Sequence record: NC_101840.1
Source of the DNA: a phage
Length of the DNA stretch: 49,798 nucleotides
Direction: 5' to 3' (one strand)
Of this stretch, positions 11,675 to 44,881 are shown in pieces (the stretch's first letter is position 1; every line of letters begins with the position of its first letter). The notes under the pieces were generated by a model. It did no database searches and was not told where the DNA came from. It saw nothing but the letters and a program-made list of their open reading frames with translations. The position numbers and the translations under genes are program-made.

Positions 11675-11679
11675 AACAA

Positions 11680-11701: not shown

Positions 11702-11740
11702 ATTCCTGTAAAATCAATCTATCAAATAAATTAATTCCAC

Positions 11741-11760
11741 TTTTAACAAAAAGTGCTATA
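11741..11760 (-). promoter_or_regulatory. conserved junction box, inverted relative to downstream gene
   Basis: TTTTAACAAAAAGTGCTATA directly abutting the RBS of the chaperone gene. Confidence 0.45.
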
Positions 11761-11773
11761 AGGAGATCTTAAG

Positions 11774-12091
11774 ATGGCAAAGATGAAACTAACGTTAGGC
11801 CCACTGCCTGATTTTAAGCTGCCTGTTTCTTTCGTGCTTCCAAATGGTGATGAGCAAGTTATTGTTTTTACCGTGCGCCACAAGAAGGCAAGCGAAATTC
11901 ACGAACGATACACAGCAGAAAAGCCGATGAGCGACGTAGAAATGATCACCTTCCTTGCTTCCGGTTGGGATCTGGAAGATGAATTTAACGAGGAAAACGT
12001 TGCTAAATTGCTGGATTATTACCCGTCTGCGTCATTATCGCTGACTGGTCATTATATGAAAGCACTTGCGGGGCAGCGGGTAAAAAACTAA
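11774..12091 (+). CDS. tail assembly chaperone (lambda G-like, 105 aa)
   Basis: position between major tail and tape measure genes; ends just after slippery heptamer. Confidence 0.6.
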   Translation: MAKMKLTLGPLPDFKLPVSFVLPNGDEQVIVFTVRHKKASEIHERYTAEKPMSDVEMITFLASGWDLEDEFNEENVAKLLDYYPSASLSLTGHYMKALAGQRVKN

Positions 12092-12408
12092 AGCGGGCGG
12101 TTTACCTGTTTTACCTCAAGCCGCCAACTGACGCACAATTAGAGGCCGTCGGCCTATCCCGTTCAGACTACGAAGGGGAGGAGCCGCCGGAGGTAATTTT
12201 TGATGAATCAATGTTTCAATCTTGGGATCTGTTTTGCGCTATGCAGACGCAATGGAGATCGACTAGCGGCAGTGTGTATGGGTTCGACTATAACGTTTTG
12301 CCTATGCTTTTTGACATTTACAAGATTGAGGATCGGGAGATGGCGCTAAATGATTTGCGCATCATGGAACAAAAGGCGCTAGAAATGATTCATTCAAACA
12401 AAACATAA
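11774..12408 (+). CDS. tail assembly chaperone frameshift product (GT-like), via -1 frameshift near 12082-12088
   Basis: -1 frame stays open from the slippery site to 12408 (track ORF 12211..12408 is its 3' part). Confidence 0.5.
12082..12088 (+). other. slippery heptamer A_AAA_AAC for programmed -1 ribosomal frameshift
   Basis: XXXYYYZ heptamer immediately before G stop codon; conserved G/GT arrangement in siphophages. Confidence 0.5.
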
Positions 12409-12428
12409 GCGCCGCGAGGCGCTTTTTT
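12408..12428 (+). terminator. hairpin plus T-run
   Basis: AGCGCC-GCGA-GGCGCT followed by TTTTTT. Confidence 0.5.
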
Positions 12429-12447
12429 AATATCTGGAGGTTTTAAA

Positions 12448-23442: not shown

Positions 23443-23470
23443 TTGACTAAATCAACCAAATGGCTACAAT
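23443..23470 (+). promoter_or_regulatory. sigma70-type promoter (TTGACT-N16-TACAAT) for recombination operon
   Basis: near-consensus hexamers with 16-nt spacer about 30 nt upstream of ATG 23501. Confidence 0.5.
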
Positions 23471-26581: not shown

Positions 26582-26813
26582 TATACCTTCCGCTACCCAA
26601 CTCGGATGATAGATCAGTTTGTTTTAGATACGGTTTCAACTTATTGTCAACATCAGCAGTTGATGCTTTTCCTGCAACATCCTGTTTTAGTGTCGAAACG
26701 TCATTTTTCAGCTTCGTTATATCACCAGGAATAGTAGCAACATCCTGTTTTAGTGTTGAAACGTCATTTTTCAGCTTCGTTATATCACTAGGTATAACAG
26801 TGACTGTAGCCAT
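26553..26813 (-). CDS. tail-fibre segment with perfect 20-aa tandem repeat (86 aa); likely 5' part of the same fibre gene
   Basis: AAGGAG RBS; IPxDITKLKNDVSTLKQDVA repeated twice; ends at stop just after a T5/C6 homopolymer. Confidence 0.5.
   Translation of the reverse strand: MATVTVIPSDITKLKNDVSTLKQDVATIPGDITKLKNDVSTLKQDVAGKASTADVDNKLKPYLKQTDLSSELGSGRYSGSFYPPNW
26676..26795. repeat. two tandem 60-bp direct repeats inside the fibre ORF
   Basis: near-identical 60-mers on the + strand with 2 mismatches. Confidence 0.7.
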
Positions 26814-27104: not shown

Positions 27105-29059
27105 TAAACAATTTCCCCCAATTGATGATCTGTTAGCGCCTTGTGCCATATACGGAAGTTTCTAACGTGCCCGAAAAGATGGCGTTCGCCTGTACTTGTT
27201 TGTCCGCCAATCCTTATAGTAGCCGTTGATACTATATATCTCCATTCCGTTTTTGTTTCGCTTGACATTCTGGCATTACTTACACAACAAGTATTGTAAT
27301 CACTCTTTACTCTCATTCCTATGATCATCTTTTTTAGTTTCGCATTCTCGTTAACCCTTCTGTTTGATTTACCTATATCGCAATAAGGGAATCCATCAGC
27401 ATCGCCTTCGGCAGACCCGAAAGCAAGAATAATTCCCGCACCAGATTGATGACCTCCAGTATCGAAAACACGAGGCGCAGCGTTTGGCGTTATACTCCAG
27501 TTTTTATGAGCTTCCACAAGCACTGTAAACGGCAAATTGTAAAGGTTGTTTTTTATTGGCAATGTAACCATATCGCTTGCCCTTGTTGTCGGACTTTTAT
27601 TAGTTATAATGAATGATGAAGCGCAAGATCCAACCTCTACTTGAGGAGTTGTTAAATCCATAAAGCTATTTTCATCAAAAACTTCTCCTTGTTTATTAAC
27701 GACCTGTATTACCCCCCTAATGTAAGTTGATTCATCAGTAACTTTGTAAACTATTTCTGCAAAAATCCATTCCCCGTCTATGGTAGCGTTCTTTAGCACT
27801 ATGTTTTTTGCGTCAACTCCAGAAGTTGCCACCCCTAAGTTATCGCAATCAATAATAGCAGAAGCAACAGAAGATAAAGGATCTCCCTTGTCAAATCTTG
27901 CTGCAAATCTTACATTTTTCCCCTTAGCCCTAAAAGATATTGTAACTCCATCACCCTTTACAACTGCAATCTTATTTGCAGTAGGTCCAGCTATAACAGT
28001 GTAAGAGCCTACGCCACCTAAATATTCCCCTGGTTTAAATGTTGCATACTTAAACCCCCTTTCATCAGTCTTAGTTTCACCTCTTTCTAATCCTGGATTT
28101 GGATTCCATGATTCAGGCTTATTTGAATTTACAAAATAGTTTGTTCTCTGCCCTTCAATCAAAAGACCATCCTTTTCAAATCTAGGTTCATCAATAGCAG
28201 CATCAGTAAGCAACCCAGACTTATTAATGTAAGTAGCGGTTGATGCACGTTTAAACTTAACAATCTTGTCACCTGGCATCGTGATCTCATCATCACCTAT
28301 GACAATCTTTTTGTATGACGGCGAGAATCCGGTGATCATATCCAGGGAATCATTAAATGGTATCCACACGTCAGGTAGAGGCTGCAATAAATCTTTGTAA
28401 GGTTCTGCGGCCTGTTTTGCGTATTCCTCCGCTTGATCTCGCGCACTTTCAGCGCCTGCCTTTGCGGTGTTCGCAGCATCACGCGCAGTTTCAGCGCCTT
28501 TTCTTGCAGTTTCAGCGCCAGTCTTTGCAGTGTTTGCAGCGTCGCGCGCGGATTCAGCGGCAGCCTTTGCAGTGTCAGCACCTTTCTTGCTATTCTTTGC
28601 ATTTGTTGCGCTTGTCTTTGCGTTATTCTCGCTAGTTTTAGCTGCCTTCTGGCTTGCTGCGGCTGCGTCAGCATTTGTCTTTACGTCTTCCTGGATCTTC
28701 TGTAGCTTATCCCAATCAAAATCCTTGATGATCTCAATAAATCCAGCAAACTCCGATTCCTTCCCCTGGTAATAACGCAACGTTTCCGCTACGTCTTGCG
28801 CAAGACCGTCAACCGTTAACGAGTCATGAAGCAAGATCAGGTAATTTGTCTTCTGTACTACCGCGCCTCCAGTAGTAATTGCGCGAATGCTTGTATCGCT
28901 AATCACTTCTGTAATCACAGCAGCTTGCAAAGGTTGAGCAAGAAAGAAAATAGTTGCACCTGGGCGAATCAAGGTTAATTGCTCACGCCATTTTGTACCG
29001 TAACCAGTTACATAACCTTGCGCGTCCATAGACGCTTGGCCTTGTCTGTAAATCGCCAT
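27104..29059 (-). CDS. side tail fibre protein (about 651 aa)
   Basis: N-terminal Ala/Thr/Lys-rich fibre repeats; GGAGG RBS before ATG 29059 (track start 29083 is GTG). Confidence 0.7.
   Translation of the reverse strand: MAIYRQGQASMDAQGYVTGYGTKWREQLTLIRPGATIFFLAQPLQAAVITEVISDTSIRAITTGGAVVQKTNYLILLHDSLTVDGLAQDVAETLRYYQGKESEFAGFIEIIKDFDWDKLQKIQEDVKTNADAAAASQKAAKTSENNAKTSATNAKNSKKGADTAKAAAESARDAANTAKTGAETARKGAETARDAANTAKAGAESARDQAEEYAKQAAEPYKDLLQPLPDVWIPFNDSLDMITGFSPSYKKIVIGDDEITMPGDKIVKFKRASTATYINKSGLLTDAAIDEPRFEKDGLLIEGQRTNYFVNSNKPESWNPNPGLERGETKTDERGFKYATFKPGEYLGGVGSYTVIAGPTANKIAVVKGDGVTISFRAKGKNVRFAARFDKGDPLSSVASAIIDCDNLGVATSGVDAKNIVLKNATIDGEWIFAEIVYKVTDESTYIRGVIQVVNKQGEVFDENSFMDLTTPQVEVGSCASSFIITNKSPTTRASDMVTLPIKNNLYNLPFTVLVEAHKNWSITPNAAPRVFDTGGHQSGAGIILAFGSAEGDADGFPYCDIGKSNRRVNENAKLKKMIIGMRVKSDYNTCCVSNARMSSETKTEWRYIVSTATIRIGGQTSTGERHLFGHVRNFRIWHKALTDHQLGEIV
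28430..28640. repeat. degenerate short repeats encoding Ala/Thr/Lys-rich fibre segment
   Basis: reiterated GCNGAA/ACNGCNAAA-type codon blocks. Confidence 0.4.
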
Positions 29060-29074
29060 TTGTAAAATCCTCCT

Positions 29075-29096
29075 AAATAGCACTTTTTGCTAATGA
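29075..29096 (+). promoter_or_regulatory. conserved junction box, inverted relative to the leftward fibre gene
   Basis: AAATAGCACTTTTTGCTAATGA about 16 nt upstream of the fibre gene start on the opposite strand. Confidence 0.45.
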
Positions 29097-30150: not shown

Positions 30151-30627
30151 TTAGCTATTCGTGCTGTTATCACCTTTGTAGAATCGTCCGCCTGGTTCGT
30201 AGTCTGAATTTTTGACTACGCGCAACATATCGTATTTGTCGCAACGGGTAGTAAGAGGCTTACCGTTAGAATCAAACCGCAGATCTGGACGACAAAATGA
30301 TGCGCGGTATCCTTTGCATCCATTATATTTGTAGTCGTTATGCACCTTTTGTGCTCCAGCGGCTGAAATCATACCACGCTTTCGCCACTGGTTAACGACT
30401 TGCTGAGATACGCGCAGACGTCGAGCCATAGCAGGAACGCCGCCGTAATACTCGATCAGAATGTCAAGGCGAGATTTCAGGCTTGCTTTTACCTCATCTC
30501 GCAGGATAAGAAATCCGGTTCGGTGTTTTCGTGGTTTTTTGTCTTTACCTCGTCGCGTTCCGTTGTTACCGTTAATAGTGCGCTTGTCGATCTCACCCGT
30601 AGATACTGCAATTCGTGCATCTTTCAT
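30151..30627 (-). CDS. HTH DNA-binding protein (Cro/YdaS-like helix-turn-helix)
   Basis: LRVSQQVVNQWRKRG helix-turn-helix signature, basic N-terminal region; GAGGTGA RBS. Confidence 0.5.
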   Translation of the reverse strand: MKDARIAVSTGEIDKRTINGNNGTRRGKDKKPRKHRTGFLILRDEVKASLKSRLDILIEYYGGVPAMARRLRVSQQVVNQWRKRGMISAAGAQKVHNDYKYNGCKGYRASFCRPDLRFDSNGKPLTTRCDKYDMLRVVKNSDYEPGGRFYKGDNSTNS

Positions 30628-30636
30628 CTAGTCACC

Positions 30637-30658
30637 TCATAGCATTTTTTGTTAAAAC
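30637..30658 (+). promoter_or_regulatory. conserved junction box, sense to helicase gene; overlaps RBS of divergent HTH gene
   Basis: CATAGCATTTTTTGTTAAAAC. Confidence 0.5.
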
Positions 30659-30714
30659 AGTTTATTGTAATTAGTCTATTATATACTCCAAATGGCATTT
30701 TTTAAAGGTTTAAG

Positions 30715-36747: not shown

Positions 36748-37139
36748 TGAAGAATTTTTTACTTACACCAATCGCAATGGCGGTGATCTTGTCTGGATGT
36801 TCAAGCGTTACGCCACTGACCGGATTAATCGGCAGTAAGCCGGAAATCACAGCACAGGCTGGATCGGAGAACGTGAAGCAGACAGTTGGCATTACAGCAA
36901 AGCAGGACGCCAGCACAAAACAGGAAACCACAATAAAGGAATCTGCGGTTGACAAGGTGGACACGTCCAGCAAGAAGGATTTCACAACATCAACCATTCA
37001 GGCCAATACCATCAAGGCAGACAAAATTCATGTCGTGCAGGGTAATAACGGTAGATGGTACGATCCAGTAATCATATGCGTGGTTGTGTTAATTGTGCTG
37101 ATTTGTCTTTACTGGAGAGAAAAGAAAAAGGAGGCTTAA
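36744..37139 (+). CDS. unimolecular spanin (u-spanin)
   Basis: N-terminal lipoprotein signal with lipobox ILSGC and C-terminal transmembrane helix in one chain, after endolysin. Confidence 0.65.
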
Positions 37140-37157
37140 TGCCTCCTTTATTTTTAT
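37130..37157 (+). terminator. rho-independent terminator of lysis operon
   Basis: GGAGGC-TTAAT-GCCTCC hairpin followed by T-rich tract. Confidence 0.5.
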
Positions 37158-37378
37158 GCGTCGGGCCACATATGAGTTTCGTTTGTTGGCTTGTTCGATT
37201 CGTCGTACTGCCTTACTTCAATGCTGCAAGTGTCGCCGTACATTTCTGCAATCTTGCGCTCATTTTCAACCGCCGATTGCTCACTCCAGCCTGAATCCTT
37301 ATCGTAAACTGTCGGGATTTCAGAAGAAGATCCATTTGCATGATTGTATACGCGAACTACTAAAAACTTGCTGGACAT
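37154..37378 (-). CDS. hypothetical protein (74 aa)
   Basis: internal ATG of track ORF 37154..37429 with AAAAGGAAAAA RBS. Confidence 0.4.
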   Translation of the reverse strand: MSSKFLVVRVYNHANGSSSEIPTVYDKDSGWSEQSAVENERKIAEMYGDTCSIEVRQYDESNKPTNETHMWPDA

Positions 37379-37439
37379 AATTTTTCCTTTTTGGTTGGTT
37401 CGTTTCGATGAAACAAATATACCCGACACAAGGTCGGGA

Positions 37440-37460
37440 GTTTTAACAAAAAATGCTATT
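37440..37460 (-). promoter_or_regulatory. conserved junction box, sense to leftward gene
   Basis: on minus strand: AATAGCATTTTTTGTTAAAAC, hairpin CCCGACC...GGTCGGG, TATATT, leader TTCATCGAAACGAAC. Confidence 0.55.
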
Positions 37461-37576
37461 CCATACGCTTTACTGTAACCAATAACACACCATCATCATT
37501 GCATAAAACGTGTTCAGTGGTGCTAAAAGCTCGCATATCTGAATAAAGTAGCGTAAGTAAAGCATGAATAAAATCA

Positions 37577-37972
37577 TCATGTGATATTGAATTTACGGCG
37601 CAGTGCTTCAAGATCTTGTCTATTAGCTTTTGCCTGGAACAATTCATCATCGCCCATCTCCCCTATTCTAGCCATATCCCTGATCCAGTCGTTGCGCATA
37701 CCATCCAGGCTATACAATTCGAATCCGAAAGGCCGCTTTGACGATCCTTTGGACCAGTATTTTCCGCAGACTCCATCTATATAACCAGCCGTCATCATTC
37801 TTGCGCAAAATTCCTTAGATGCAAGGCTGGCGAACATTCGCGGCGTAAGTCCGGCGGCCCGTGCGAGCCGCTCACATTCTCTATGCTGATAGATAAATTT
37901 GGCTATGTGCTGCCTGTTAAACCAATCGTATGACTCACACCATTTATACAGATCAAGCAAAAACATAATCAT
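37577..37972 (-). CDS. hypothetical protein (131 aa)
   Basis: track ORF; start overlaps stop of upstream ATPase gene. Confidence 0.45.
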   Translation of the reverse strand: MIMFLLDLYKWCESYDWFNRQHIAKFIYQHRECERLARAAGLTPRMFASLASKEFCARMMTAGYIDGVCGKYWSKGSSKRPFGFELYSLDGMRNDWIRDMARIGEMGDDELFQAKANRQDLEALRRKFNIT

Positions 37973-39549
37973 CCCAGCAGTATTGGATTGACAAAAATAA
38001 CACCATTAATCACACAAACATAATTTCTTTCTTCCAGCATTGGCAGTAAGTGCCCTTCTATCCTTTTCATTACGCCAGCCTGACCAACGAAAGGTTTTAC
38101 CTTTCTCGCTGATTCGTACAGGGCGCGGATATTCAGAATCCCTTTATTAGCCTTGCCGTGCCTCGTGATCAATTCAATCAATTTACCCATTTCAGCATCA
38201 TCACCAGCATAACCAGAAGCATTGGCGGCGCTAATGTATGTTTTGCTCAATTCCTGAAACATGATCAACGCCTCTTGCATTGTTTCCACGTCGATCTCTT
38301 TCGACTTCTGCGGGTATCCGGCAGGATTAAACCAGTTACGGATAACATGCAGGACGGAAGCAAGCCTGATCACCTGTTTATCCATTTTACCCAGCGCACC
38401 GCGTAACATTGTATGAGAATACTTTCCTCCGTCTGCAAGATGCGGTTCCATATCCTGGCGAGCAATGTTGAGCACTCGCATAGCTGAACGGCTTATTTTC
38501 AGCGATATATTTGATTCGCTCATGATGTTATGCACCAATTGATAATATTGGGCTTTCAATTCAGAATCCACCGCCTCATAGGTAGAATCACCATTTTCAT
38601 CAATGAATGAGCGACGGCCTAAGAATGATTCCTCTCGGACCAACAAAAAACGCTCACTAACACCGATGCCTCGCGATCCAGCGTCCATGATTCCGCTTAT
38701 CGTTTCATCCTGGGCTATGACGCTCATACATCCAAGCGCGCGAAAACTCATATTATTGTCAGCATTAGCACGGGCAATTGATACGTGACCATTATCCCAC
38801 GCCTTAAGCACTAACTCACTGTTAGTCTTCCTTTCGCTATTTGCATAGGTCAAGCCTAACAGACTGTTAATACTTGTTGCTTCATCAGATATTACGGCAA
38901 AGTTACCTTGCTTGTTGTTGATTTTCGCCAAGCCTTCTGGAGTTGTATCTGAAACAGGAAAAGTTATATCACACATTTTTTCCAGCTTTTCCTCCAGATC
39001 CTCTTTTTCCTGGTATAGAGATTCCATATCAGCGCCGGATCTTTCGCTTTTCATCTCCTTTGCAAGACCTGCCAGCTTTGCCTGTATTTTCTTTCTTTCC
39101 TTGCGGCGTTGCTCGTTGATCTTCTCAACTTCCGCAATCATCGGAGCAATAGCCATGCTGTTGATCGCAGATTTACCAGTTGACGGCGGCTGGCTTGTAA
39201 CGACGTAAAGCGCAGTCGGCTGATCGGTTCCGTGATAGTCAACCGTAAAGCGTCCAAGCATAGCGGCAGAAATGCAGCCGATAAAGTGCATGTAAGCCGA
39301 TGATTCAGGGAATTGAACGGATCGCGCAATGCTGCGTGATAACTTGCCGACAACATCAATATCATTACCAAGAGAAATAACGGGGTAGCGATCGTGACCG
39401 CTATTCACATCCTTTACGTCGCCCCAAAAGCTGGACGACTGGCGATAGCCGTTAGCCTGAATTGATACGCGAACTGGCGAAAGGTTCTGGCTTTCAGCCA
39501 TAGCGATTATTTGTTGTGGAGTTAATTTGTTCGTTTCTAATGAAAACAT
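37969..39549 (-). CDS. P-loop NTPase, SF3-helicase-like (526 aa)
   Basis: Walker A variant QPPSTGKS and Walker B-like VISDEAT; AAAGGAG RBS. Confidence 0.55.
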   Translation of the reverse strand: MFSLETNKLTPQQIIAMAESQNLSPVRVSIQANGYRQSSSFWGDVKDVNSGHDRYPVISLGNDIDVVGKLSRSIARSVQFPESSAYMHFIGCISAAMLGRFTVDYHGTDQPTALYVVTSQPPSTGKSAINSMAIAPMIAEVEKINEQRRKERKKIQAKLAGLAKEMKSERSGADMESLYQEKEDLEEKLEKMCDITFPVSDTTPEGLAKINNKQGNFAVISDEATSINSLLGLTYANSERKTNSELVLKAWDNGHVSIARANADNNMSFRALGCMSVIAQDETISGIMDAGSRGIGVSERFLLVREESFLGRRSFIDENGDSTYEAVDSELKAQYYQLVHNIMSESNISLKISRSAMRVLNIARQDMEPHLADGGKYSHTMLRGALGKMDKQVIRLASVLHVIRNWFNPAGYPQKSKEIDVETMQEALIMFQELSKTYISAANASGYAGDDAEMGKLIELITRHGKANKGILNIRALYESARKVKPFVGQAGVMKRIEGHLLPMLEERNYVCVINGVIFVNPILLG

Positions 39550-39601
39550 TCGTTAGCTTCTCCTTTGTGGGCCGTAAATTTTAACGGCCCAATACTACCC
39601 C

Positions 39602-39623
39602 GTTTTGTCAAAAAGTGCTATTT
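39602..39623 (-). promoter_or_regulatory. conserved junction box (TTGACA variant), sense to leftward ATPase gene
   Basis: on minus strand: AAATAGCACTTTTTGACAAAAC; TAG is stop of upstream gene; hairpin GGGCCGTTAAAATTTACGGCCC follows. Confidence 0.55.
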
Positions 39624-39839
39624 GATCCGCTCTATTGCAACCAGAAGTCGATCAGGCTGGCGGTCGCTGTAGCATTCTCCTGTAATCCCATCCTTAAACG
39701 TAAAGTAAAGCGCCTTATGATATGAAAAACCAATCAGCCAACCTACCGCCGTTTTTTTGATGGGCCTGACTATATCGCCAGGCTTGAAAGTCTTTGTGGT
39801 AGAATGCGTTACTTTGTAACGGTTTTCACTGTTTATCAC
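39618..39839 (-). CDS. hypothetical protein (73 aa)
   Basis: track ORF, coupled to upstream gene. Confidence 0.4.
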   Translation of the reverse strand: MINSENRYKVTHSTTKTFKPGDIVRPIKKTAVGWLIGFSYHKALYFTFKDGITGECYSDRQPDRLLVAIERIK

Positions 39840-40222
39840 AGATATTTGCCCTCAAACAGACAACAGCCGCCAGCAGAGAATCCGACCTCTTCACGGTACA
39901 GGTTCCAGCGGTCGCCGCACTCATCAAAAACATAACCCGCAACGCTTCCAAGCGGTCGCCCTTTCTCGATCTGGTATCGCTTGCCCTGCTTAAAGTGCTT
40001 TTTGCACGGCATGTTATGATCTACAAACGTGCAAAGAACGGTCTTTGTGTTAATGGCGCGGTAATCATCTCGGTTTGCTGGAAGCCAACGGCTACCCTTA
40101 ACAAGCGTCTTAACCTGGAACTCTTCCACCTCGATCACATCATTACTTCCTGCAATCTTCTGATAAACCGTTTTAAAACGGCCTTTCATCAATACGTTGG
40201 TTTCATTACAGATAACATTCAT
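39836..40222 (-). CDS. hypothetical protein (128 aa)
   Basis: track ORF; AAAGGAG RBS. Confidence 0.45.
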   Translation of the reverse strand: MNVICNETNVLMKGRFKTVYQKIAGSNDVIEVEEFQVKTLVKGSRWLPANRDDYRAINTKTVLCTFVDHNMPCKKHFKQGKRYQIEKGRPLGSVAGYVFDECGDRWNLYREEVGFSAGGCCLFEGKYL

Positions 40223-40275
40223 GATTAGATCTCCTTTGTTTGTTCGATGTGATTATGCCAGGTTTTTACACCTGG

Positions 40276-40297
40276 CTTTTAACAAAAAGTGCTATTT
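40276..40297 (-). promoter_or_regulatory. conserved junction box, sense to leftward genes
   Basis: on minus strand: AAAATAGCACTTTTTGTTAAAAG; TAG is stop of methyltransferase-like gene; hairpin GCCAGGTG...CCTGGC and CATAAT follow. Confidence 0.55.
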
Positions 40298-41002
40298 TGA
40301 GTTTGACTCAAAGACTGCGCGAGCAAAGCCGCGCGGAGTGAGGGAGCGGATCATCTTTGTGCGCGATGACTTGCCGCCAGTTTTGGCCCAGCCTGGATTA
40401 TCTTTGTCTTCCTCTTTCGGCAGGATTAAAGCGCGTGGAGGAATAACAAAGCCGTTGCCAGTCCAGAGGCACGTTTTCTTAAAATAGCGATCACGCGCAG
40501 GAATAATATCAGGGAAGTCGGGATGTTTATCATCTTCCGGCAGATAGCCAGCGTAATCGCACGGATGGAACGTATAATCAGGCTTACGCCATAACGTTGA
40601 CAACTTGCCAACCGGATTTTCGATCATGTAAGGAACACCGAAATAATCAGCTATATCAGCCGCGATTCTGCAAGTGTCGGCGGCCTCATCCTGGAACGAT
40701 GGATTCTCAAGGCGTTTTTTGGCCCAATGGCGAGATCCGCTATTTGCAAGGTCGGTGCACGGCGGAAATGCCATAATAAAATCAGGATTGCCCCACTCAT
40801 TATTGATTGCCTTAACATAAAAAGCATCGTCAATCCAGACGTTAACGTATTCGATATTCTCATGCTGTATGCGCACTGACTGGTAATCACCGTGATCGCC
40901 ACCGTCAGCATTAAAGCAAATGCACTTATATCCATTATCAGCCCAATCTTTAACGGCTTTACCAGATCCATCAAATAGGGAGAATATTAAACCTTTATAC
41001 AT
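40292..41002 (-). CDS. compact DNA cytosine-5 methyltransferase-like protein (about 236 aa)
   Basis: motif I-like LFDGSG, PC-motif FPPCTDLANSG, ENV-like IENPVG, LTPRG near C-terminus; start at second ATG with GAGGT RBS (track 40292..41071). Confidence 0.5.
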   Translation of the reverse strand: MYKGLIFSLFDGSGKAVKDWADNGYKCICFNADGGDHGDYQSVRIQHENIEYVNVWIDDAFYVKAINNEWGNPDFIMAFPPCTDLANSGSRHWAKKRLENPSFQDEAADTCRIAADIADYFGVPYMIENPVGKLSTLWRKPDYTFHPCDYAGYLPEDDKHPDFPDIIPARDRYFKKTCLWTGNGFVIPPRALILPKEEDKDNPGWAKTGGKSSRTKMIRSLTPRGFARAVFESNSK

Positions 41003-41012
41003 CGTCATTACC

Positions 41013-41237
41013 TCAAAACGGAAAACAGCGCGGACAACCAGGATCGAAATCGCATCCACAATCATTAACAATCATAGTGGGATCTGCAAATATTGCGCTT
41101 GATTCAAGATCCATATCCATATCACCTAAAGCCTCATCAAGAGTCTTAATTTTATATGCCACTTCAAGCGCCGCCTCTTTATTTAGTCCGGCATCTTCTG
41201 CCATTTGAAGGCGCTCAAAAAATCCGTCTTGACTCAT
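41013..41237 (-). CDS. hypothetical acidic protein with C-terminal Cys cluster (74 aa)
   Basis: track ORF; CGCDFDPGCPRC motif. Confidence 0.45.
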   Translation of the reverse strand: MSQDGFFERLQMAEDAGLNKEAALEVAYKIKTLDEALGDMDMDLESSAIFADPTMIVNDCGCDFDPGCPRCFPF

Positions 41238-41350
41238 CGCATAATCCCCTTAATAACAGCCAAGATAATAGCCAGGCCAGCAGTAGTAACCAAAAAGCCA
41301 ACCGCGCCAATAATCGAATAAAAAAAGAAATCAATAGCCTTATCTATCAT
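41234..41350 (-). CDS. small hydrophobic membrane peptide (38 aa)
   Basis: ATG with GAGGTGG RBS; single predicted TM helix; ATGA overlap with next gene; below ORF-track size cutoff. Confidence 0.3.
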   Translation of the reverse strand: MIDKAIDFFFYSIIGAVGFLVTTAGLAIILAVIKGIMR

Positions 41351-41391
41351 TTCCACCTCATTTAAAAGGCGGCAAAACGCCGCCATATTAA

Positions 41392-41619
41392 TTAAAGAGC
41401 ACGCCAACTTTGAATATAGAAAGCGTTTTCTTCCAGTAATTCTTTTAACTGATCTTTATTGTATTTGCGCACCTTACCGCCTGGATTGATACCAATAAGA
41501 TAGCCGCCTTTGCCCTCGGTGATAGTGATTTGGCTAATTCCACAAGACTTATCAAGTTTTACAGCCACGCGGTGATGAGCGTCAATAGTTGACATAATGT
41601 TTAAAACTTTTGCTTTCAT
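41392..41619 (-). CDS. hypothetical protein (75 aa)
   Basis: track ORF; GAGGA RBS. Confidence 0.45.
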   Translation of the reverse strand: MKAKVLNIMSTIDAHHRVAVKLDKSCGISQITITEGKGGYLIGINPGGKVRKYNKDQLKELLEENAFYIQSWRAL

Positions 41620-41727
41620 TTAAATATCCTCAATTGAAATATGAATGGCGTCGTGCTCTTTTTCCGTCGCCGCCGTAATGGTCATTTGCAACCGCTACCA
41701 TCCAGGCATTTTTGAAAATAAATAGCC

Positions 41728-41940
41728 TCATTTCTTATTTTTCATCTTAAATTTATGGCCTGGAACACCAGCACCAATATAGCCATCGTTGTATTCCATT
41801 AAATAAAGGTGAAGGCCATTATCTGAAATTACATGAGGATCTTCTTTGAGATTTCCCATTAGCGGGTATTCTTTTCCGCGCGTAAATCTCCAAGTTGAGT
41901 CATAAGTTTCTACGCATTTAAGTTTTAATTGCTTTGCCAT
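41728..41940 (-). CDS. hypothetical protein (70 aa)
   Basis: track ORF; coupled to upstream gene. Confidence 0.45.
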   Translation of the reverse strand: MAKQLKLKCVETYDSTWRFTRGKEYPLMGNLKEDPHVISDNGLHLYLMEYNDGYIGAGVPGHKFKMKNKK

Positions 41941-42137
41941 TAGATGATCTCCATGTATGTTTCAAAGCCATTTAACTTGAACAGGCCGTTTTCACATTTG
42001 CGAACGTTCCAAGTTAGCCCTGAGTGGTACGCCTCCATATCATCAAGGTCAATGGTGATTTCAGCACCTTTCTTAAACAAACCTTTTTCGTGAGACTTGT
42101 CGCGCTTAACAACTTTAACATCAACCTGATTTTCCAT
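41940..42137 (-). CDS. hypothetical protein (65 aa)
   Basis: track ORF; GAGGA RBS. Confidence 0.45.
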   Translation of the reverse strand: MENQVDVKVVKRDKSHEKGLFKKGAEITIDLDDMEAYHSGLTWNVRKCENGLFKLNGFETYMEII

Positions 42138-42192
42138 CTTTAAATCCTCGTTTGTTGTCGATGCGCTTACTATACCAATCAGCAGCGCATCT

Positions 42193-42214
42193 TTTTTAAC
42201 AAAAAGTGCTATTT
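42193..42214 (-). promoter_or_regulatory. conserved junction box, sense to leftward genes
   Basis: on minus strand: AAATAGCACTTTTTGTTAAAAAA preceded by TAA stop; hairpin GATGCGCT...AGCGCATC with TATAGT in loop. Confidence 0.55.
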
Positions 42215-42476
42215 AGTCCAGAAATTCGATTTCACGATCTCCAGTTAACGGATTTACAAGCCAGAATCCGAGCGGTTCGCCGTGAACACCGCCATAGAAT
42301 CCAAGTGCCGTCAGATCTTCACCTTTAACGAATACCAGATTTCCGCTACGGCTTACGTGAGACACGTTAACGATAACCGGAAATGTGCGATCCTTAAATG
42401 CAGGCCGCAGGGCGTAACACCCGTTATTGAGCAAACGTGCTTTGCGCTTAACTGGAATAGGTGCATTAATTTTCAT
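42213..42476 (-). CDS. hypothetical protein (87 aa)
   Basis: track ORF. Confidence 0.45.
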   Translation of the reverse strand: MKINAPIPVKRKARLLNNGCYALRPAFKDRTFPVIVNVSHVSRSGNLVFVKGEDLTALGFYGGVHGEPLGFWLVNPLTGDREIEFLD

Positions 42477-42488
42477 GGTTATTACTCC

Positions 42489-42701
42489 TTATCGTAAAGA
42501 TTTAAAGACGTATAGTTTATTGCGGTAACTATATATCCGCATTGTTATTTCTCGCAGTGCAATATATTCCTTCCTGTTTTCCGGCAGACTGGCGAGCAAC
42601 AACAGGCAGTATTTATAAGCGCGGTCAAGATTCCTTTCCGTGCCCCTGCAATATCCCTTATTGCGCCTGGAGCGGTACAGCCATAACAATTTCTTGAACA
42701 T
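42489..42701 (-). CDS. hypothetical basic protein (about 70 aa); start uncertain
   Basis: internal ATG of track ORF 42489..42791 chosen to avoid overlap with upstream gene. Confidence 0.3.
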   Translation of the reverse strand: MFKKLLWLYRSRRNKGYCRGTERNLDRAYKYCLLLLASLPENRKEYIALREITMRIYSYRNKLYVFKSLR

Positions 42702-42702
42702 T

Positions 42703-42912
42703 TCAGATACGCCCATACAGATCGCAAACTTCGTTGATAAAACAGCGTTGAGAATCTTTATCCTGCTTCTCAAACATCGCACGGCACTCATAGCGGTGAT
42801 TATGTACGATGACTACAACCATATTTTCAGGTGCTGACGGGTGACGCGCGGAAGCGTCGCAGATTGAAACATCCATACCCATCTCATGTGCTTTCTTGAT
42901 CACATCCAACAT
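42703..42912 (-). CDS. hypothetical protein (about 69 aa); start uncertain
   Basis: internal ATG of track ORF 42703..42936. Confidence 0.3.
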   Translation of the reverse strand: MLDVIKKAHEMGMDVSICDASARHPSAPENMVVVIVHNHRYECRAMFEKQDKDSQRCFINEVCDLYGRI

Positions 42913-43166
42913 TTTTTCTTCTCCTGCAATAAGCAAACATCATTGATAAAATCAGCACGGCCCTTAATGTTGCTGATGTGGAACGTCTTTTCAGCGTACA
43001 GGCCATCACCTTCAATCACGATCATTACGCGAGTCGGTTTATTCACGGGCGCACACGAAAAGAGTGGTCGCGCCGGAAGAAATTTAGTGGTCACATCCAG
43101 GTTAGCCCTGGCGGCCCTGCAAAATGCCTCCGCCAGATCCAAATCATTTTCGGTAATCACCGCCAT
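42900..43166 (-). CDS. hypothetical protein (88 aa)
   Basis: track ORF. Confidence 0.35.
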   Translation of the reverse strand: MAVITENDLDLAEAFCRAARANLDVTTKFLPARPLFSCAPVNKPTRVMIVIEGDGLYAEKTFHISNIKGRADFINDVCLLQEKKKCWM

Positions 43167-43438
43167 TACTTTTTGATCTCCTTACTGATAAATTTCAGCA
43201 CCTGGCGCAAGAAAACTTCGTTGTTGATAGTCGCTGGCAATTCTTCTTTCACTTCTTGCGGCAGATAGATATTGCCGTGCCAGGTCAAGCAATCGTAGTT
43301 GATACGATAAGAGCAAAGCCACTCGCAATCGTTATCTGCTTCCCAAATGCAGAGTTGCAGAACATCGCCAAAATCTTCAACAGTCAGTTCCAGACCGTGA
43401 CGCTTAGCGAAATTGAAAGTGGTTTTGCTGATGTTCAT
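43166..43438 (-). CDS. hypothetical protein (90 aa), first gene of leftward early operon
   Basis: AGGAGATAGTAA RBS; preceded by box, TACATT hexamer and conserved leader CATCGAAACGAAC. Confidence 0.5.
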   Translation of the reverse strand: MNISKTTFNFAKRHGLELTVEDFGDVLQLCIWEADNDCEWLCSYRINYDCLTWHGNIYLPQEVKEELPATINNEVFLRQVLKFISKEIKK

Positions 43439-43497
43439 TTACTATCTCCTGAGCGGTTCGTTTCGATGTGTGTAATGTACCCGATCAGGTGGCATGA

Positions 43498-43519
43498 GTT
43501 TTAACAAAAAGTGCTATTT
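43498..43519 (-). promoter_or_regulatory. conserved junction box heading the leftward early operon
   Basis: on minus strand: AAATAGCACTTTTTGTTAAAAC. Confidence 0.55.
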
Positions 43520-44072
43520 GACAGTTAGCACCAGGATTGTGATCGAAATAATCAAAAGTAATCATTCGTAATCAAATCTCATCAAAATGATGATTGCCTT
43601 TGCAAATTTGATGAGAAAAGTAATCACGTTTAATCATTGGTTGCAGGGGAGATAGTGAAACCTTCCCCTCTTGCCTCACTTTTCCGCCTGGCTGTCAGCG
43701 GTTGTTGTCTTTTGTTCACCCCTGTTACCGATTTCAGGCGGCGTGTTTCCGCGCGGTTTTCCGGTGTAGCGAAAACGAAAAAAACAAAAAAATCCCTCTA
43801 TAATACATTGAAAATAAAGATTATTTATTTATATATATCTATAATGTTTTCTTTTTGTTCTCACTGTTACAGTGCTTTTTGTTGGGTGTGGTGTGGTTGT
43901 GTGTTGGTATATATGGATAGTTGCGCGCGCGGCGGATTGCATATGTATATATACTTTTTCCGGCGGATTGCGTTAACAGCGTGAACAGAAAAATAACAGC
44001 CCTGAAATCAATAACTTGCGCATGATTTTGTAGTTTTTTGATATTGGTAACGTTTTGAATACAACAAAAACA

Positions 44073-44100
44073 TTGACACGCACCAAATAGCTTTTATAAT
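44073..44100 (+). promoter_or_regulatory. consensus sigma70 promoter (TTGACA-N16-TATAAT) for rightward early operon
   Basis: perfect -35 and -10 hexamers about 30 nt upstream of ATG 44132. Confidence 0.6.
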
Positions 44101-44131
44101 GCGCCAACAGTCAACAACTGGAGGAAAGGAA

Positions 44132-44596
44132 ATGGAACAGAAGACCACTAAGGACTATTGCGATTGGCTTCGCGAGCTTGGTCGCCGCCTGGCTAGTGGC
44201 GATATTGAAGAGTATAAAATGTCACTAATTGACCTGGCCGGAATGTTAAGCGGTGACGACTGCTACAAGATCACGCGCAGTTCATCCTACAGCCGGACCA
44301 TTATCAACCGCGTTCCAGAAGTAAGGGCCGCAGGTCGGGTAAGCATCAAGGTAGAGGAAACGGAAGATGATAAATTTTACGTTTTCCGCATGGTCCGCGA
44401 ATCGAAAAGGAAAATCATCACACCCGAAGAATTGCCAGCCATCAAGGCGAGGGCGATCAAAAAGTTTGCCGATCGCTTACTGGCAGCAATCCCGAATATC
44501 GTTGACCTGGAAGGGGATAAACTGGCTGGGGCTTGCGAGGGCGTAAGCCGCTACCAGGATATGATCCGCGAAATCATCAAAGAGGAAGAGCAATGA
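44132..44596 (+). CDS. hypothetical early protein (154 aa)
   Basis: internal ATG of track ORF 44099 with GGAGGAAAGGAA RBS. Confidence 0.5.
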   Translation: MEQKTTKDYCDWLRELGRRLASGDIEEYKMSLIDLAGMLSGDDCYKITRSSSYSRTIINRVPEVRAAGRVSIKVEETEDDKFYVFRMVRESKRKIITPEELPAIKARAIKKFADRLLAAIPNIVDLEGDKLAGACEGVSRYQDMIREIIKEEEQ

Positions 44597-44865
44597 AAAA
44601 GGCATTAATCAGCGTTTTGGCGGCAATGGCATTCCTGACCGGATGTAAAGAAGATGGCGCGCATGTTGGCAATGTGCAGATGGCTAACCCTGGCGATGAC
44701 TACAGCGTAAGGGAGCTATTCACCGCTGACGGTTGCACCGTTTACCGATTCTATGACGATCGCACTGTTTACTTCACCAACTGTAAGGGAACGACTAGCT
44801 GGGAAGTGTCGAAAAGCAATGGCAAAGGCACGAAGACAGAACATATGACCGTCGAGACAAAATAG
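44593..44865 (+). CDS. lipoprotein (90 aa), second candidate superinfection-exclusion protein
   Basis: signal peptide with lipobox LTGC; ATGA overlap with upstream gene (track 44533 uses upstream start). Confidence 0.55.
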   Translation: MKKALISVLAAMAFLTGCKEDGAHVGNVQMANPGDDYSVRELFTADGCTVYRFYDDRTVYFTNCKGTTSWEVSKSNGKGTKTEHMTVETK

Positions 44866-44881
44866 CACTTTTTGTTAAAAC
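44860..44881 (+). promoter_or_regulatory. conserved junction box (consensus copy), sense
   Basis: AAATAGCACTTTTTGTTAAAAC; TAG is lipoprotein stop; hairpin GGGGCC-AGGTATAAT-GGCCC follows. Confidence 0.55.

What the first reader, a model, noticed from the sequence alone, without database searches (positions are those of the whole stretch)
37154..43438. 6.3-kb leftward early block of about 18 mostly orphan small genes with four internal box copies
This block holds about 18 ORFs, most between 38 and 131 aa with no recognisable motifs, plus an SF3-like ATPase and a compact C5-methyltransferase-like gene. It is subdivided by box copies at 37440, 39602, 40276 and 42193 and headed by the box at 43498. 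Such hyper-variable early regions are where host-takeover and anti-defence genes are usually found. Candidates include the acidic 74-aa protein with a C-terminal CxC...CxxC cluster (41013-41237) and tiny membrane peptides.
Basis: inference. Interest (0 to 1): 0.6.

Follow-up and report, generated by a model that had tools for sequence, protein, structure and literature searches.

The report
T1-like phage early arm, marbox promoters
This is the conserved leftward early/replication arm of a T1-like coliphage, and its repeated "box" is a promoter element that copies the binding site of the host stress regulators MarA/SoxS/Rob, so this phage family may run its genes through a host stress switch.

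Summary
The region has 18 minus-strand ORFs and five copies of a 20-nt box, at the stated coordinates to within 1 nt. The window is a Warwickvirus (Drexlerviridae) genome, 99.2% identical to phage tuinn, so the block itself is already in GenBank many times.

"Mostly orphan" and "hyper-variable" are only partly right. Thirteen of the 17 small ORFs match a PHROG family, and six genes have homologues in T1. The 526-aa ATPase is an MCM-like replicative helicase rather than a classic SF3 one. One 65-aa gene belongs to the Gp54 family, a known CapRel defence trigger. Seven of the 18 genes, clustered in the promoter-proximal half, have no T1 homologue.

The box is the 21-nt repeat described in phage TLS in 2024, with function left open. 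Each block copy sits 19 nt upstream of a -10 hexamer, with no -35. It fits the E. coli marbox consensus with 1-2 mismatches. Its orientation and spacing match the class II micF promoter.

Published Bas11 data, remapped here, show that a fragment starting inside the box works in uninfected E. coli. Escape mutations at -71 (GCAC of the box) and -37 (the -10) lower expression. Dependence on MarA/SoxS/Rob is inferred, not shown.

The parts
43474..43518 (-). Head promoter P1. Box 43499-43518, a 19-nt spacer, then the -10 hexamer TACATT at 43474-43479. There is no hairpin.
   Evidence: The -35 position matches TTGACA at only 2 of 6 bases. The spacer folds at -2.6 kcal/mol, z +0.9.
43166..43438 (-). 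90-aa gene of unknown function (PHROG 6147).
   Evidence: It is 81-93% identical in BabyEgg, GS71 and W011D. SD is AGGAG.
42900..43166 (-). 88-aa gene with no family match, lineage-restricted.
   Evidence: Only BabyEgg has a homologue (95%).
42703..42912 (-). 69-aa gene with no family match, lineage-restricted.
42489..42701 (-). 70-aa basic protein (pI 10.3), a genus-level ORFan.
   Evidence: tblastn finds 57 records, all >=95% identical and all Warwickvirus-like. It has no PHROG or Pfam match.
42213..42476 (-). 87-aa gene (PHROG 9595).
   Evidence: A 50%-identical homologue sits elsewhere in T1.
42160..42213 (-). Promoter P2. Box 42194-42213, the -10 hexamer TATAGT at 42169-42174, and a hairpin at 42160-42191 that spans the -10.
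   Evidence: The hairpin folds at -14.9 kcal/mol, z -3.4. This is the homologue of the Bas11 gene 54 promoter, which was tested experimentally.
41940..42137 (-). 65-aa Gp54-family protein, an SH3-like beta-barrel related to the CapRelSJ46 trigger of Bas11.
   Evidence: Pfam PF25180, E 1.7e-38. PDB 9AXB, E 4e-17. It has V7 and A25 where the Bas11 trigger has A7 and I25.
41728..41940 (-). 70-aa gene with only weak PHROG matches.
41630..41731 (-). 33-aa gene (PHROG 32259), with an ATGA overlap with the upstream gene.
   Evidence: It is annotated in BabyEgg.
41392..41619 (-). 75-aa gene (PHROG 4344), with a T1 homologue (37%).
41368..41384 (-). Internal intrinsic terminator, GGCGGCGTTTTGCCGCC followed by TTTTAAAT.
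   Evidence: (-12.8 kcal/mol).
41234..41350 (-). 38-aa single-pass membrane peptide.
   Evidence: SD GAGGTGG, and its stop overlaps the next ATG. Maximum hydropathy is 2.38. GS71 has a 57%-identical homologue.
41013..41237 (-). 74-aa acidic protein (pI 4.1) with three N-terminal helices and a C-terminal Cys4 knuckle.
   Evidence: 97 homologues, all >=68% identical and on ~50-kb phage contigs. The cysteines are invariant. The T1 homologue lacks them. AF2 pLDDT is 68.5.
40292..41002 (-). Compact (236 aa) C5-cytosine-methyltransferase-like gene. The probable true start is the ATG at 41002.
   Evidence: PHROG 757, E 3e-86. 3034 homologues of 227-260 aa, named 'DNA cytosine methyltransferase' by NCBI. 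Motifs I, IV, VI and IX were read in the sequence. There is no Pfam or NCBIfam hit.
40252..40296 (-). Promoter P3. Box 40277-40296 overlaps the methyltransferase stop codon. The -10 hexamer CATAAT is at 40252-40257, and a hairpin lies at 40257-40276.
   Evidence: The hairpin folds at -14.0 kcal/mol, z -5.4.
39836..40222 (-). 128-aa gene (PHROG 2684), with a T1 homologue (60%).
39618..39839 (-). 73-aa gene (PHROG 12725) with a GTG start.
39568..39622 (-). Promoter P4. Box 39603-39622 (AATAGCACTTTTTGACAAAA), and the -10 hexamer TAAAAT at 39578-39583, which sits in the loop of a hairpin at 39568-39591.
   Evidence: The hairpin folds at -15.6 kcal/mol, z -2.9.
37969..39549 (-). 526-aa DUF3987 protein, an MCM-like AAA+ replicative helicase with a C-terminal winged-helix region.
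37577..37972 (-). 131-aa gene labelled 'YdbL' in relatives (PHROG 2794). It is coupled to the helicase gene by an ATGA overlap.
   Evidence: T1 53%.
37456..37650 (-). 64-aa gene (PHROG 9539) that overlaps the 3' end of the 131-aa gene.
   Evidence: T1 has a 43%-identical homologue. It is annotated in BabyEgg, GS71 and W011D.
37416..37460 (-). Promoter P5. Box 37441-37460 (AATAGCATTTTTTGTTAAAA), the -10 hexamer TATATT at 37416-37421, and a hairpin at 37422-37438.
   Evidence: The hairpin folds at -12.8 kcal/mol, z -2.3.
37154..37378 (-). 74-aa acidic gene (PHROG 27210), the last gene of the arm.
37127..37149 (.). Bidirectional intrinsic terminator between this arm and the convergent lysis cassette.
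   Evidence: -14.2 kcal/mol, z -3.5.

Best explanation
The region is the conserved leftward early/replication arm of a Warwickvirus (T1-like, Drexlerviridae) genome. It corresponds to T1 genes 1-10.

**Transcription layout.** The arm is cut into five short transcription units. Each starts at a compact promoter module made of a 20-nt box, a 19-nt spacer, a -10 hexamer, and an A/C-rich leader (CATCGAAACGAAC...GGAG).

**What the box does.** The box takes the place of a -35 element. In sequence, orientation and spacing it is a class II marbox, the binding site of the host monomeric AraC-family activators MarA, SoxS and Rob. These proteins bind across the -35 region and recruit sigma70 RNA polymerase through sigma region 4 and alpha-CTD. 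The phage encodes no such protein. The most likely mechanism is therefore host RNA polymerase helped by a host marbox-binding activator. Rob is the one present in unstressed cells. MarA and SoxS (and RamA in Klebsiella and Salmonella) would act under stress.

**What the hairpins do.** GC-rich hairpins lie between the box and the -10, or across the -10, only at the four internal promoters. They act on the RNA coming from upstream, as a terminator or 3'-end hairpin. Each unit is thus insulated and restarted within about 45 nt.

**Cargo.** The arm carries:
- an MCM-like replicative helicase with two coupled partner genes;
- a compact C5-methyltransferase-like enzyme;
- a conserved acidic Cys4 protein;
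- a Gp54-family protein;
- a promoter-proximal set of lineage-restricted small accessory genes.

**Status of each step.**
- Shown by computation: the gene map, the box census, the spacing, the marbox match, the hairpin pattern and the fold of the helicase.
- Shown by others' experiments remapped here: the box promoter works in uninfected E. coli and needs the GCAC core and the -10.
- Inferred: that MarA/SoxS/Rob are the proteins that read the box, and that the arm is expressed early.
For: **The box matches the marbox.**
- The box occurs 16 times against 0.01 expected.
- The marbox consensus AYnGCACnnWnnRYYAAAY (PMC3709825) is matched with <=1 mismatch at 16 sites against 1.21 expected. Thirteen of these are boxes.
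- T1, in a different subfamily, has 21 such sites.
- Across 34 genomes or loci there are 161 unique box-plus-spacer instances. The low-information columns are the n/W/Y columns of the marbox. GCAC, G, T and AAA are near-invariant.
- The core of one box is one base away from a 15-nt site that PMC12052159 predicts at xseA/guaB, a locus it lists among known MarA targets: GCATTTTTTGCAAAA against GCACTTTTTGCAAAA.
- The mar marbox is ATGCCACGTTTTGCTAAAT.

**The geometry matches class II promoters.**
- The gap from box end to -10 is 19 nt at all five block promoters. It is 19 nt in 99 of the 161 instances and 18-20 nt in 137. Counted from a 20-bp marbox, that is 18 nt.
- E. coli micF has ACAGCACTGAATGTCAAAAC, 18 nt, then TAGAAT. 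fumC has 17-18 nt.
- Class II promoters are defined by a forward-oriented marbox overlapping the -35, centred near -41.
- The -35 position matches TTGACA at a mean of 2.55 of 6 bases.

**Host proteins are enough.**
- In Bas11, gene 54 is preceded by ATAGCACTTTTTGTTAAAA, 19 nt, then TATCAT.
- The fragment that gave Gp54-FLAG in uninfected MG1655 begins, by primer TZ-58, at TAGCAC of the box, in a pBR322 without Ptet.
- Escape mutations named -71mut and -37mut lower Gp54 expression. Counted from the ATG, they map to the A of GCAC and to the second base of the -10.

**The phage has no candidate of its own.**
- No AraC-family protein is encoded: phmmer and hmmsearch with genuine MarA and Rob give a best E of 0.065.
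- The only phage HTH regulator varies at its recognition helix (SQQ, SFQ, THQ, NLK, SNQ) while the box stays the same.

**Hairpins.**
- They fold at -12.8 to -15.6 kcal/mol at the internal promoters, and there is none at the head promoter.
- The T1 GenBank record annotates the same hairpins as terminators.

**Cargo.**
Against: - No binding or activation by MarA, SoxS or Rob has been tested on these sites.
- In unstressed cells MarA and SoxS are scarce and Rob is largely sequestered (PMC2787020). T1-like phages nevertheless grow vigorously in plain broth.
- Classical T1-resistance genetics is known for tonA and tonB only (my own knowledge).
- The phage box is more constrained than the marbox consensus. 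A at position 3 and TT at positions 11-12 are near-invariant. Position 19 is usually A rather than Y. A different reader with a similar specificity is therefore possible.
- The -71 mutation lies near -45, so an effect through alpha-CTD cannot be excluded. Its mapping rests on my reading of the plasmid names, because the figure itself is not held.
- A few boxes are not in promoter geometry: window 3366 and 29076, T1 8362 and 25021.
- Early timing of the arm has not been measured.
Confidence: 0.55

Rival explanations
1. The box is read directly by sigma70 RNA polymerase, or by some other host protein, as an unusual upstream or UP-like element. MarA, SoxS and Rob would play no part, and the marbox resemblance would be convergent or coincidental.
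For: The promoter works in uninfected cells. The -71 mutation lies near -45, where alpha-CTD can bind. The TLS paper itself proposed UP-like elements. T1-like phages grow well without inducers of MarA or SoxS (my own knowledge).
Against: The invariant GCAC and G are not UP-like, since UP elements are A/T tracts. The variable columns coincide with the n/W/Y columns of the marbox. The spacing equals that of micF. The chance rate of a <=1-mismatch marbox match is about 1.2 per 100 kb of sequence scanned (both strands of the window).
Confidence: 0.2
2. The box is the operator of the phage's own Cro-like regulator (window 30151-30627, minus strand). That protein would switch the box promoters on, or later off.
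For: It is the only recognisable DNA-binding protein: Cro/YdaS-like HTH, PDB Cro homologues at E 6e-4. It has its own ordinary sigma70 promoter (TTTAAA-17-TATAAT; in T1 TTGAAT-17-TATAAT). A box lies in its leader, an arrangement that suits autoregulation. The box contains a partial dyad, TAGCA-N5-TGyTA.
Against: The box promoter is active, and dependent on the box, in uninfected cells. The start of the predicted recognition helix differs between lineages while the box does not. The box is asymmetric and strictly oriented with a fixed distance to the -10. A modulating or repressing role later in infection is not excluded.
Confidence: 0.12
3. The block is chiefly a hyper-variable island of host-takeover and anti-defence genes, and the boxes merely subdivide it.
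For: The block holds a Gp54-family member, whose Bas11 homologue is non-essential and defence-sensed. It holds a methyltransferase-like gene. Seven of its genes have no T1 homologue, and one is found only in Warwickvirus-like records. Pieces of the methyltransferase and small-gene region occur at 70-74% identity in unrelated 164-kb myoviruses.
Against: About a third of the block is a replication module conserved in roughly 1000 Drexlerviridae records. The block is 97-99% identical across more than 50 genomes. None of ten block proteins matches a PADLOC defence-system model, a library that in any case holds no counter-defence proteins. The favoured 74-aa candidate is a conserved core gene. No anti-defence activity is known for any gene here.
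Confidence: 0.3
4. The boxes are 'stoperators', as in mycobacteriophage L5: oriented repressor sites that silence transcription.
For: They are asymmetric repeats oriented with transcription, an analogy raised in the TLS paper.
Against: The phage is virulent and has no integrase or repressor cassette in the annotation of its relative tonn. Every block box sits at a fixed 19 nt from a -10 hexamer. A mutation in the box lowers expression rather than raising it.
Confidence: 0.03

Closest known systems
Class II MarA/SoxS/Rob-dependent promoters of E. coli (micF, fumC)
   Same: A 19-20-bp asymmetric marbox (AYnGCACnnWnnRYYAAAY) in forward orientation overlaps the -35. It lies 18 nt (17-18 in fumC) upstream of the -10, and there is no good -35 hexamer. 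The fumC marbox also follows directly on a terminator.
   Different: The sites are in a virulent phage genome, in 16-21 copies. They are far more uniform than host marboxes. Binding by the host activators is untested.
21-nt direct repeat aaATAGCACnnnTTGnTAAAA of phage TLS (Phage 2024, PMC11447400), also noted in T1, Rtp and Rogue1
   Same: It is the same element. [quoted passage not shown]
   Different: That paper left the function open (stoperator, enhancer site or UP element). It did not link the repeat to a -10 hexamer at fixed distance or to the marbox.
T1 genes 1-10 (right-end minus-strand block: gp9 'putative ATPase', gp10, gp7, gp6, gp5)
   Same: It has the same position next to the lysis cassette and the same orientation. 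It has homologues of the helicase and of the 131-, 64-, 128-, 74- and 75-aa genes. It has box promoters of the same kind.
   Different: T1 lacks the cytosine methyltransferase, the Gp54-like gene and the promoter-proximal small genes. It carries an HNH endonuclease instead. Its 74-aa homologue has no Cys4 tail.
Phage T4 middle promoters (MotA box plus -10, with the -35 replaced)
   Same: Both are phage promoter classes in which a conserved activator box replaces the -35 element in front of a normal -10.
   Different: T4 supplies its own activator and co-activator (MotA and AsiA), and the box is centred near -30. Here no phage factor is needed for activity, and the box is centred near -41. The T4 facts are from my own knowledge.
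Gp54 of phage Bas11 (PDB 9AXB), direct activator of the CapRelSJ46 toxin-antitoxin defence
   Same: It belongs to the same Pfam family (PF25180), has the same length, sits at the same position after a box promoter, and is non-essential in Bas11.
   Different: The two are roughly half identical. The window protein has V7 and A25. In Bas11, A7V or I25V abolishes activation, so this allele is probably not a CapRelSJ46 trigger.
MCM-family AAA+ helicases, including those of mobile elements (SCCmec Cch, SaPI Pri-Rep)

Membership tests
Class II marbox (MarA/SoxS/Rob) promoter | Match to the marbox consensus AYnGCACnnWnnRYYAAAY | tested here: met
   Boxes 43499, 42194 and 40277 have 1 mismatch (A at position 19, as in micF). 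Boxes 39603 and 37441 have 2 mismatches. The window total is 16 sites with <=1 mismatch, against 1.21 expected.
Class II marbox (MarA/SoxS/Rob) promoter | Forward orientation, overlapping the -35, centred near -41, about 18 bp from the -10 | tested here: met
   All five point with transcription. There are 18 nt from the 20-bp marbox to the -10, identical to micF. The definitions come from PMC12052159 and PMC8811837.
Class II marbox (MarA/SoxS/Rob) promoter | Weak or absent -35 hexamer, so that an activator is needed | tested here: met
   The best match to TTGACA at 16-18 nt spacing is 2-3 of 6. The mean is 2.55 over 113 unique instances.
Class II marbox (MarA/SoxS/Rob) promoter | The box is a positive element that works with host proteins | tested here: met
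   This rests on remapping published Bas11 data. The fragment starting at TAGCAC is active in uninfected MG1655. The -71 mutation (in GCAC) and the -37 mutation (in the -10) lower expression. The mapping depends on the plasmid names.
Class II marbox (MarA/SoxS/Rob) promoter | Binding of, and activation by, MarA, SoxS or Rob | not testable with these tools
   This needs gel shift or footprinting, in vitro transcription, and mutant hosts.
C5 cytosine DNA methyltransferase (Pfam PF00145 type) | Motif I FxGxG, motif IV PC with the catalytic Cys, motif VI ENV, and motif IX | tested here: met
   LFDGSG, FPPCTDL, IENPVG and SLTPRGFARAV were read in the translation. The alignment to DNMT3B covers motifs I-IV but is weak (E 0.6).
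C5 cytosine DNA methyltransferase (Pfam PF00145 type) | Significant match to the curated family model | tested here: not met
   There is no Pfam hit at E<=1 and no NCBIfam hit at E<=0.1. The only matches are PHROG 757 'DNA methyltransferase' and the NCBI name given to homologues. No motif X follows motif IX.
MCM-like AAA+ helicase / DUF3987 | A DUF3987 model match, P-loop motifs, and an MCM-like AAA+ fold | tested here: met
Gp54 CapRel-trigger family (PF25180) | Family membership | tested here: met
   A full-length Pfam match at 130.7 bits against a cut-off of 27. PDB 9AXB, E 4e-17.
Gp54 CapRel-trigger family (PF25180) | Residues needed to activate CapRelSJ46 (A7 and I25 in Bas11) | tested here: not met
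   The window protein has V7 and A25. A7V or I25V abolishes activation.
Stoperators (mycobacteriophage L5 type) | Oriented repeats that silence transcription through a phage repressor | tested here: not met
   The orientation fits. However, the boxes sit at a fixed distance from -10 hexamers, and a box mutation lowers expression.

The most novel reading that the evidence does not exclude
Almost all promoters of Drexlerviridae (T1, TLS, Rtp, Warwickvirus, Klebsiella weberviruses) are high-affinity class II marboxes, and they depend on the host MarA/SoxS/Rob/RamA stress activators. Under this reading, phage gene expression would read out the host's stress or bile state. The 16-21 sites per genome, multiplied by replication, could also titrate these regulators away from efflux and envelope genes during infection.
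Probability: 0.4. Interest if true: 0.8.

Novelty: new variant of a known kind. Interest (0 to 1): 0.55.

Why it matters
T1 has been studied since the 1940s, yet its promoters have never been defined. The 2024 re-annotation of TLS found only three sigma70-like promoters and an unexplained 21-nt repeat.

Reading that repeat as a class II marbox promoter gives a concrete, cheaply testable model for how the whole family is transcribed. It also explains the published Bas11 escape mutations upstream of gene 54.

If host MarA, SoxS or Rob are truly used, a large group of virulent enterobacterial phages would be wired into the same regulon that controls antibiotic efflux and porins. That bears on phage-antibiotic combinations and on phage behaviour in the bile-rich gut.

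For the gene block itself, the practical result is a corrected map. It contains an MCM-like helicase, a shorter methyltransferase gene, a Gp54-family member, one real membrane peptide, and a short list of truly lineage-restricted genes worth screening for counter-defence activity.

Tried and rejected
- **AraC-family protein in the phage.** I looked in all six frames with genuine MarA and Rob. Nothing was significant.
- **Family searches on the small ORFs.** Pfam, NCBIfam and PADLOC added only Gp54 and DUF3987.
- **PDB sequence searches.** Single-sequence and profile searches for the helicase gave nothing. The methyltransferase gave only a weak DNMT3B match.
- **74-aa protein.** The AlphaFold model was too uncertain (pLDDT 68.5) to justify a fold search, so none was run.
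- **RNA genes.** There are no Rfam families in 37000-44200 and no tRNAs in the window.
- **Literature.** Searches linking marbox, MarA or Rob with T1-like phages found nothing relevant. The Rtp genome paper was not held.
- **inaA promoter.** It gave no clean marbox or -10 reading, so I did not use it.
- **TTGTTA inside the box as a -35.** I rejected this because the spacer to the -10 would be 22 nt.
- **The 57-aa TTG ORF at 41234-41407.** I rejected it in favour of the 38-aa ATG form, because the longer ORF would contain the terminator hairpin.

Full report
**Identity of the window.**
- The region 37154-43600 is 99.2% identical over its whole length to Escherichia phage tuinn. It is 97-99% identical to more than 50 other records.
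- The RefSeq relative tonn is classified Drexlerviridae; Tempevirinae; Warwickvirus.
- The object is therefore a T1-like virulent coliphage, and the block is already annotated many times, mostly as hypothetical proteins.

**Check of the observation.**
- All 18 ORFs are on the minus strand.
- Fifteen have a Shine-Dalgarno sequence or an ATGA stop/start overlap. Coding density is 94%.
- The box AATAGCACTTTTTGTTAAAA is at 37441, 39603, 40277, 42194 and 43499 on the minus strand. The window holds 16 copies with <=3 mismatches against 0.01 expected.
- The 74-aa protein is acidic (pI 4.1) and has an invariant Cys4 cluster.
- Only one membrane peptide is convincing: the 38-aa ORF at 41234-41350. It has a strong ribosome-binding site and overlaps the next start codon.
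- The longer 57-aa TTG reading of that ORF would include a terminator hairpin, so I rejected it.

**What the genes are.**
- *Family matches.* Pfam recognises only two products. PHROGs places 13 of the 17 small ORFs in families of unknown function.
- *Conservation in other genera.* tblastn against four relatives shows that the helicase and the 131-, 64-, 128-, 74- and 75-aa genes reach T1 at 37-63% identity. The 88-, 69-, 70-, 65-, 70-, 33- and 38-aa genes do not. The 70-aa ORF at 42489-42701 occurs only in 57 near-identical records.
- *Conservation at DNA level.* The helicase segment is found in roughly 1000 Drexlerviridae records. The promoter-proximal third is found only in close relatives. 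Pieces of the methyltransferase and small-gene region appear at 70-74% identity in unrelated 164-kb myoviruses. The block is thus a conserved core plus a mosaic accessory part.
- *The methyltransferase.* It belongs to a large family of 227-260-aa phage proteins that NCBI names DNA cytosine methyltransferase. It shows motifs I, IV, VI and IX but matches no curated Pfam or NCBIfam model. Its start is most likely the ATG at 41002, 8 nt after GAGG. The annotated upstream start would overlap the 74-aa gene.
- *The Gp54 homologue.* The 65-aa product of 41940-42137 is a full-length member of Pfam PF25180 and matches PDB 9AXB. In Bas11, Gp54 binds and activates the CapRelSJ46 defence protein. It is dispensable in the laboratory. 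The window's protein has V7 and A25. In Bas11, A7V or I25V abolishes activation. This allele is therefore probably not a trigger.
- *The 74-aa protein.* It is confined to Drexlerviridae-sized contigs and is >=68% identical in all 97 homologues. The T1 version lacks the cysteine tail.

**The box is a promoter element.**
- In each of the five block copies the box is followed by exactly 19 nt and a -10-like hexamer: TACATT, TATAGT, CATAAT, TAAAAT and TATATT.
- The position where a -35 should be matches TTGACA at only 2-3 of 6 bases.
- The same holds family-wide. I found 161 unique box-plus-spacer instances in T1, TLS and 32 further loci. The gap is 19 nt in 99 of them and 18-20 nt in 137.
- Homologous blocks in a Klebsiella webervirus, a Yersinia phage, a Salmonella Tlsvirus and others have the same modules.
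- Downstream of the -10 lies a conserved A/C-rich leader, CATCGAAACGAAC, then the ribosome-binding site.
- The repeat itself is not new. The 2024 TLS re-annotation described a 21-nt direct repeat, aaATAGCACnnnTTGnTAAAA. It is oriented with transcription, lies about 76 nt before start codons, and is also seen in T1, Rtp and Rogue1. That paper left its function open and found only three sigma70-like promoters.

**The box is a marbox.**
- The published consensus for MarA/SoxS/Rob sites is AYnGCACnnWnnRYYAAAY.
- The window has 16 matches with <=1 mismatch against 1.21 expected, and 13 of them are boxes. T1 has 21.
- I also collected sites with the phage's own consensus, which is independent of the marbox pattern. 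The low-information columns are exactly the n, W and Y columns. GCAC, G, T and AAA are near-invariant.
- Class II marbox promoters are defined by a forward-oriented site overlapping the -35 and centred near -41.
- I read the E. coli micF promoter directly. Its marbox ACAGCACTGAATGTCAAAAC is followed by 18 nt and then TAGAAT. Counted the same way, the phage promoters also have 18 nt.
- fumC has a perfect marbox directly after the fumA terminator, with 17-18 nt to its -10.
- A 15-nt site that PMC12052159 predicts at xseA/guaB, a locus it lists among known MarA targets, has the core GCATTTTTTGCAAAA. This is one base from a phage box.
- The mar marbox is ATGCCACGTTTTGCTAAAT.

**Who reads it.**
- The phage has no AraC-family protein.
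- Its one HTH regulator (30151-30627, minus strand) is Cro-like. It has its own ordinary sigma70 promoter, and a box lies in its leader.
- The start of its predicted recognition helix differs between lineages (SQQ, SFQ, THQ, NLK, SNQ). The box does not change.
- The strongest evidence is experimental and comes from the CapRel study:
  - Bas11 is phage JohannLBurckhardt.
  - Its gene 54 is preceded by ATAGCACTTTTTGTTAAAA, 19 nt, then TATCAT.
  - The "native promoter" clone in a Ptet-less pBR322 begins, by primer TZ-58, at TAGCAC of the box.
  - It produced Gp54-FLAG in uninfected MG1655.
  - Two escape phages carried single changes just upstream of gene 54. The plasmids are named -71mut and -37mut, and both lowered Gp54 levels.
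  - Counted from the ATG, -37 is the second base of the predicted -10, and -71 is the A of GCAC in the box.
- The box is therefore a positive element that works with host proteins alone. This excludes the stoperator idea and any strict need for a phage activator.
- It does not prove that MarA, SoxS or Rob are the readers. Direct recognition by RNA polymerase or by another host factor remains possible. That step is inference.

**The hairpins.**
- The four internal promoters carry stable hairpins in the spacer or across the -10 (-12.8 to -15.6 kcal/mol, z -2.3 to -5.4).
- The head promoter at 43499 has no upstream transcript to end, and it has no hairpin (-2.6 kcal/mol, z +0.9).
- The T1 GenBank record annotates the equivalent hairpins as rho-independent terminators.
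- The simplest reading is a terminator nested inside the next promoter.
- A further terminator lies at 41368-41384, ahead of the peptide, 74-aa and methyltransferase genes. A bidirectional terminator at 37127-37149 closes the arm.

**Verdict.**
There are accessory genes and one defence-related family. However, the arm is largely conserved, a third of it is replication machinery, and no anti-defence activity is known for any gene.
- The block is an ordinary, already sequenced part of a known phage genus.
- The new element is the reading of its boxes as class II marbox promoters. This fits every sequence test applied and the remapped Bas11 mutations, and it was not found in the literature I could search.
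- I give 0.55 to the full model, including use of a host marbox-binding activator. I give about 0.9 to the narrower claim that the boxes are host-read positive promoter elements paired with the stated -10 hexamers.

Noticed in passing
window 44073-44100 (+) and 44132-44596 (+): A perfect consensus sigma70 promoter (TTGACA-16-TATAAT, 12/12) precedes the first gene of the rightward arm, a 154-aa DUF7174 protein (Pfam E 3e-51). It is one of only three or four box-free intergenic promoters in the genome, so this gene is probably made first.
   Followed up: partly
window 30151-30714: The Cro-like regulator gene (30151-30627, minus strand) has its own sigma70 promoter (TTTAAA-17-TATAAT). That promoter shares its -10 region back-to-back with the box promoter of the divergent SNF2-type helicase gene, and the box lies in the regulator's leader. 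T1 has the same layout. The N-terminal 30 residues (STGEIDKRTINGNNGTRRGKDKK) are the most conserved part of the protein.
   Followed up: partly
window 7991-8010 (-) and 11741-11760 (-); T1 (L003) 15086 and 18850 (-): Boxes point antisense inside the late structural region, just upstream of the major capsid gene and of the tape-measure chaperone gene. They are conserved between T1 and this phage. They could be early antisense promoters that hold back late genes.
   Followed up: no
window 3366-3385 (+) and 29076-29095 (+); T1 8362 and 25021: Some boxes are not in promoter geometry. One is followed by TATAAT after 5 nt and then a terminator, before the portal gene. Another abuts the ribosome-binding site of the tail-fibre gene on the opposite strand.
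   Followed up: no
window, about 7-30 nt after each box-promoter -10 (e.g. 43440-43467, 42140-42165): A conserved A/C-rich, unstructured leader (CATCGAAACGAAC / CATCGACAACAAAC) lies between the predicted start site and the Shine-Dalgarno sequence. It is also present in T1, TLS, and Yersinia and Klebsiella relatives. It may be a translation enhancer.
   Followed up: no
window 43519-44072: This is a 550-bp non-coding stretch between the two divergent arms. It has TAATCA repeats phased at 10 nt (43549-43584, 43618-43641), AT-rich palindromes (43819-43954) and a duplicated CGGCGGATTGC. It is a candidate pac or origin region.
   Followed up: partly
window 44865-44880 versus tonn 11069-12520: Relative to phage tonn, the window lacks about 1.4 kb (tonn gp26-gp28) just after the lipoprotein-like gene at 44593-44865. 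The junction falls at a box.
   Followed up: no
window 40292-41071: Relatives annotate the methyltransferase gene with a start at 41065, which overlaps the 74-aa gene by 53 nt. The ATG at 41002, with GAGG 8 nt upstream, is the likelier start. It also fits the 227-238-aa length of most homologues.
   Followed up: yes
window 26674-26796 and 28443-28568: Two tandem 63-nt repeats (95% and 76% identical copies) lie in the region of the tail-fibre gene.
   Followed up: no
window 23443-23470 (+): A box-free sigma70-like promoter (TTGACT-16-TACAAT) precedes the recE/erf/ssb-like recombination operon. T1 has TTGACT-16-TATAAT at the same place.
   Followed up: no
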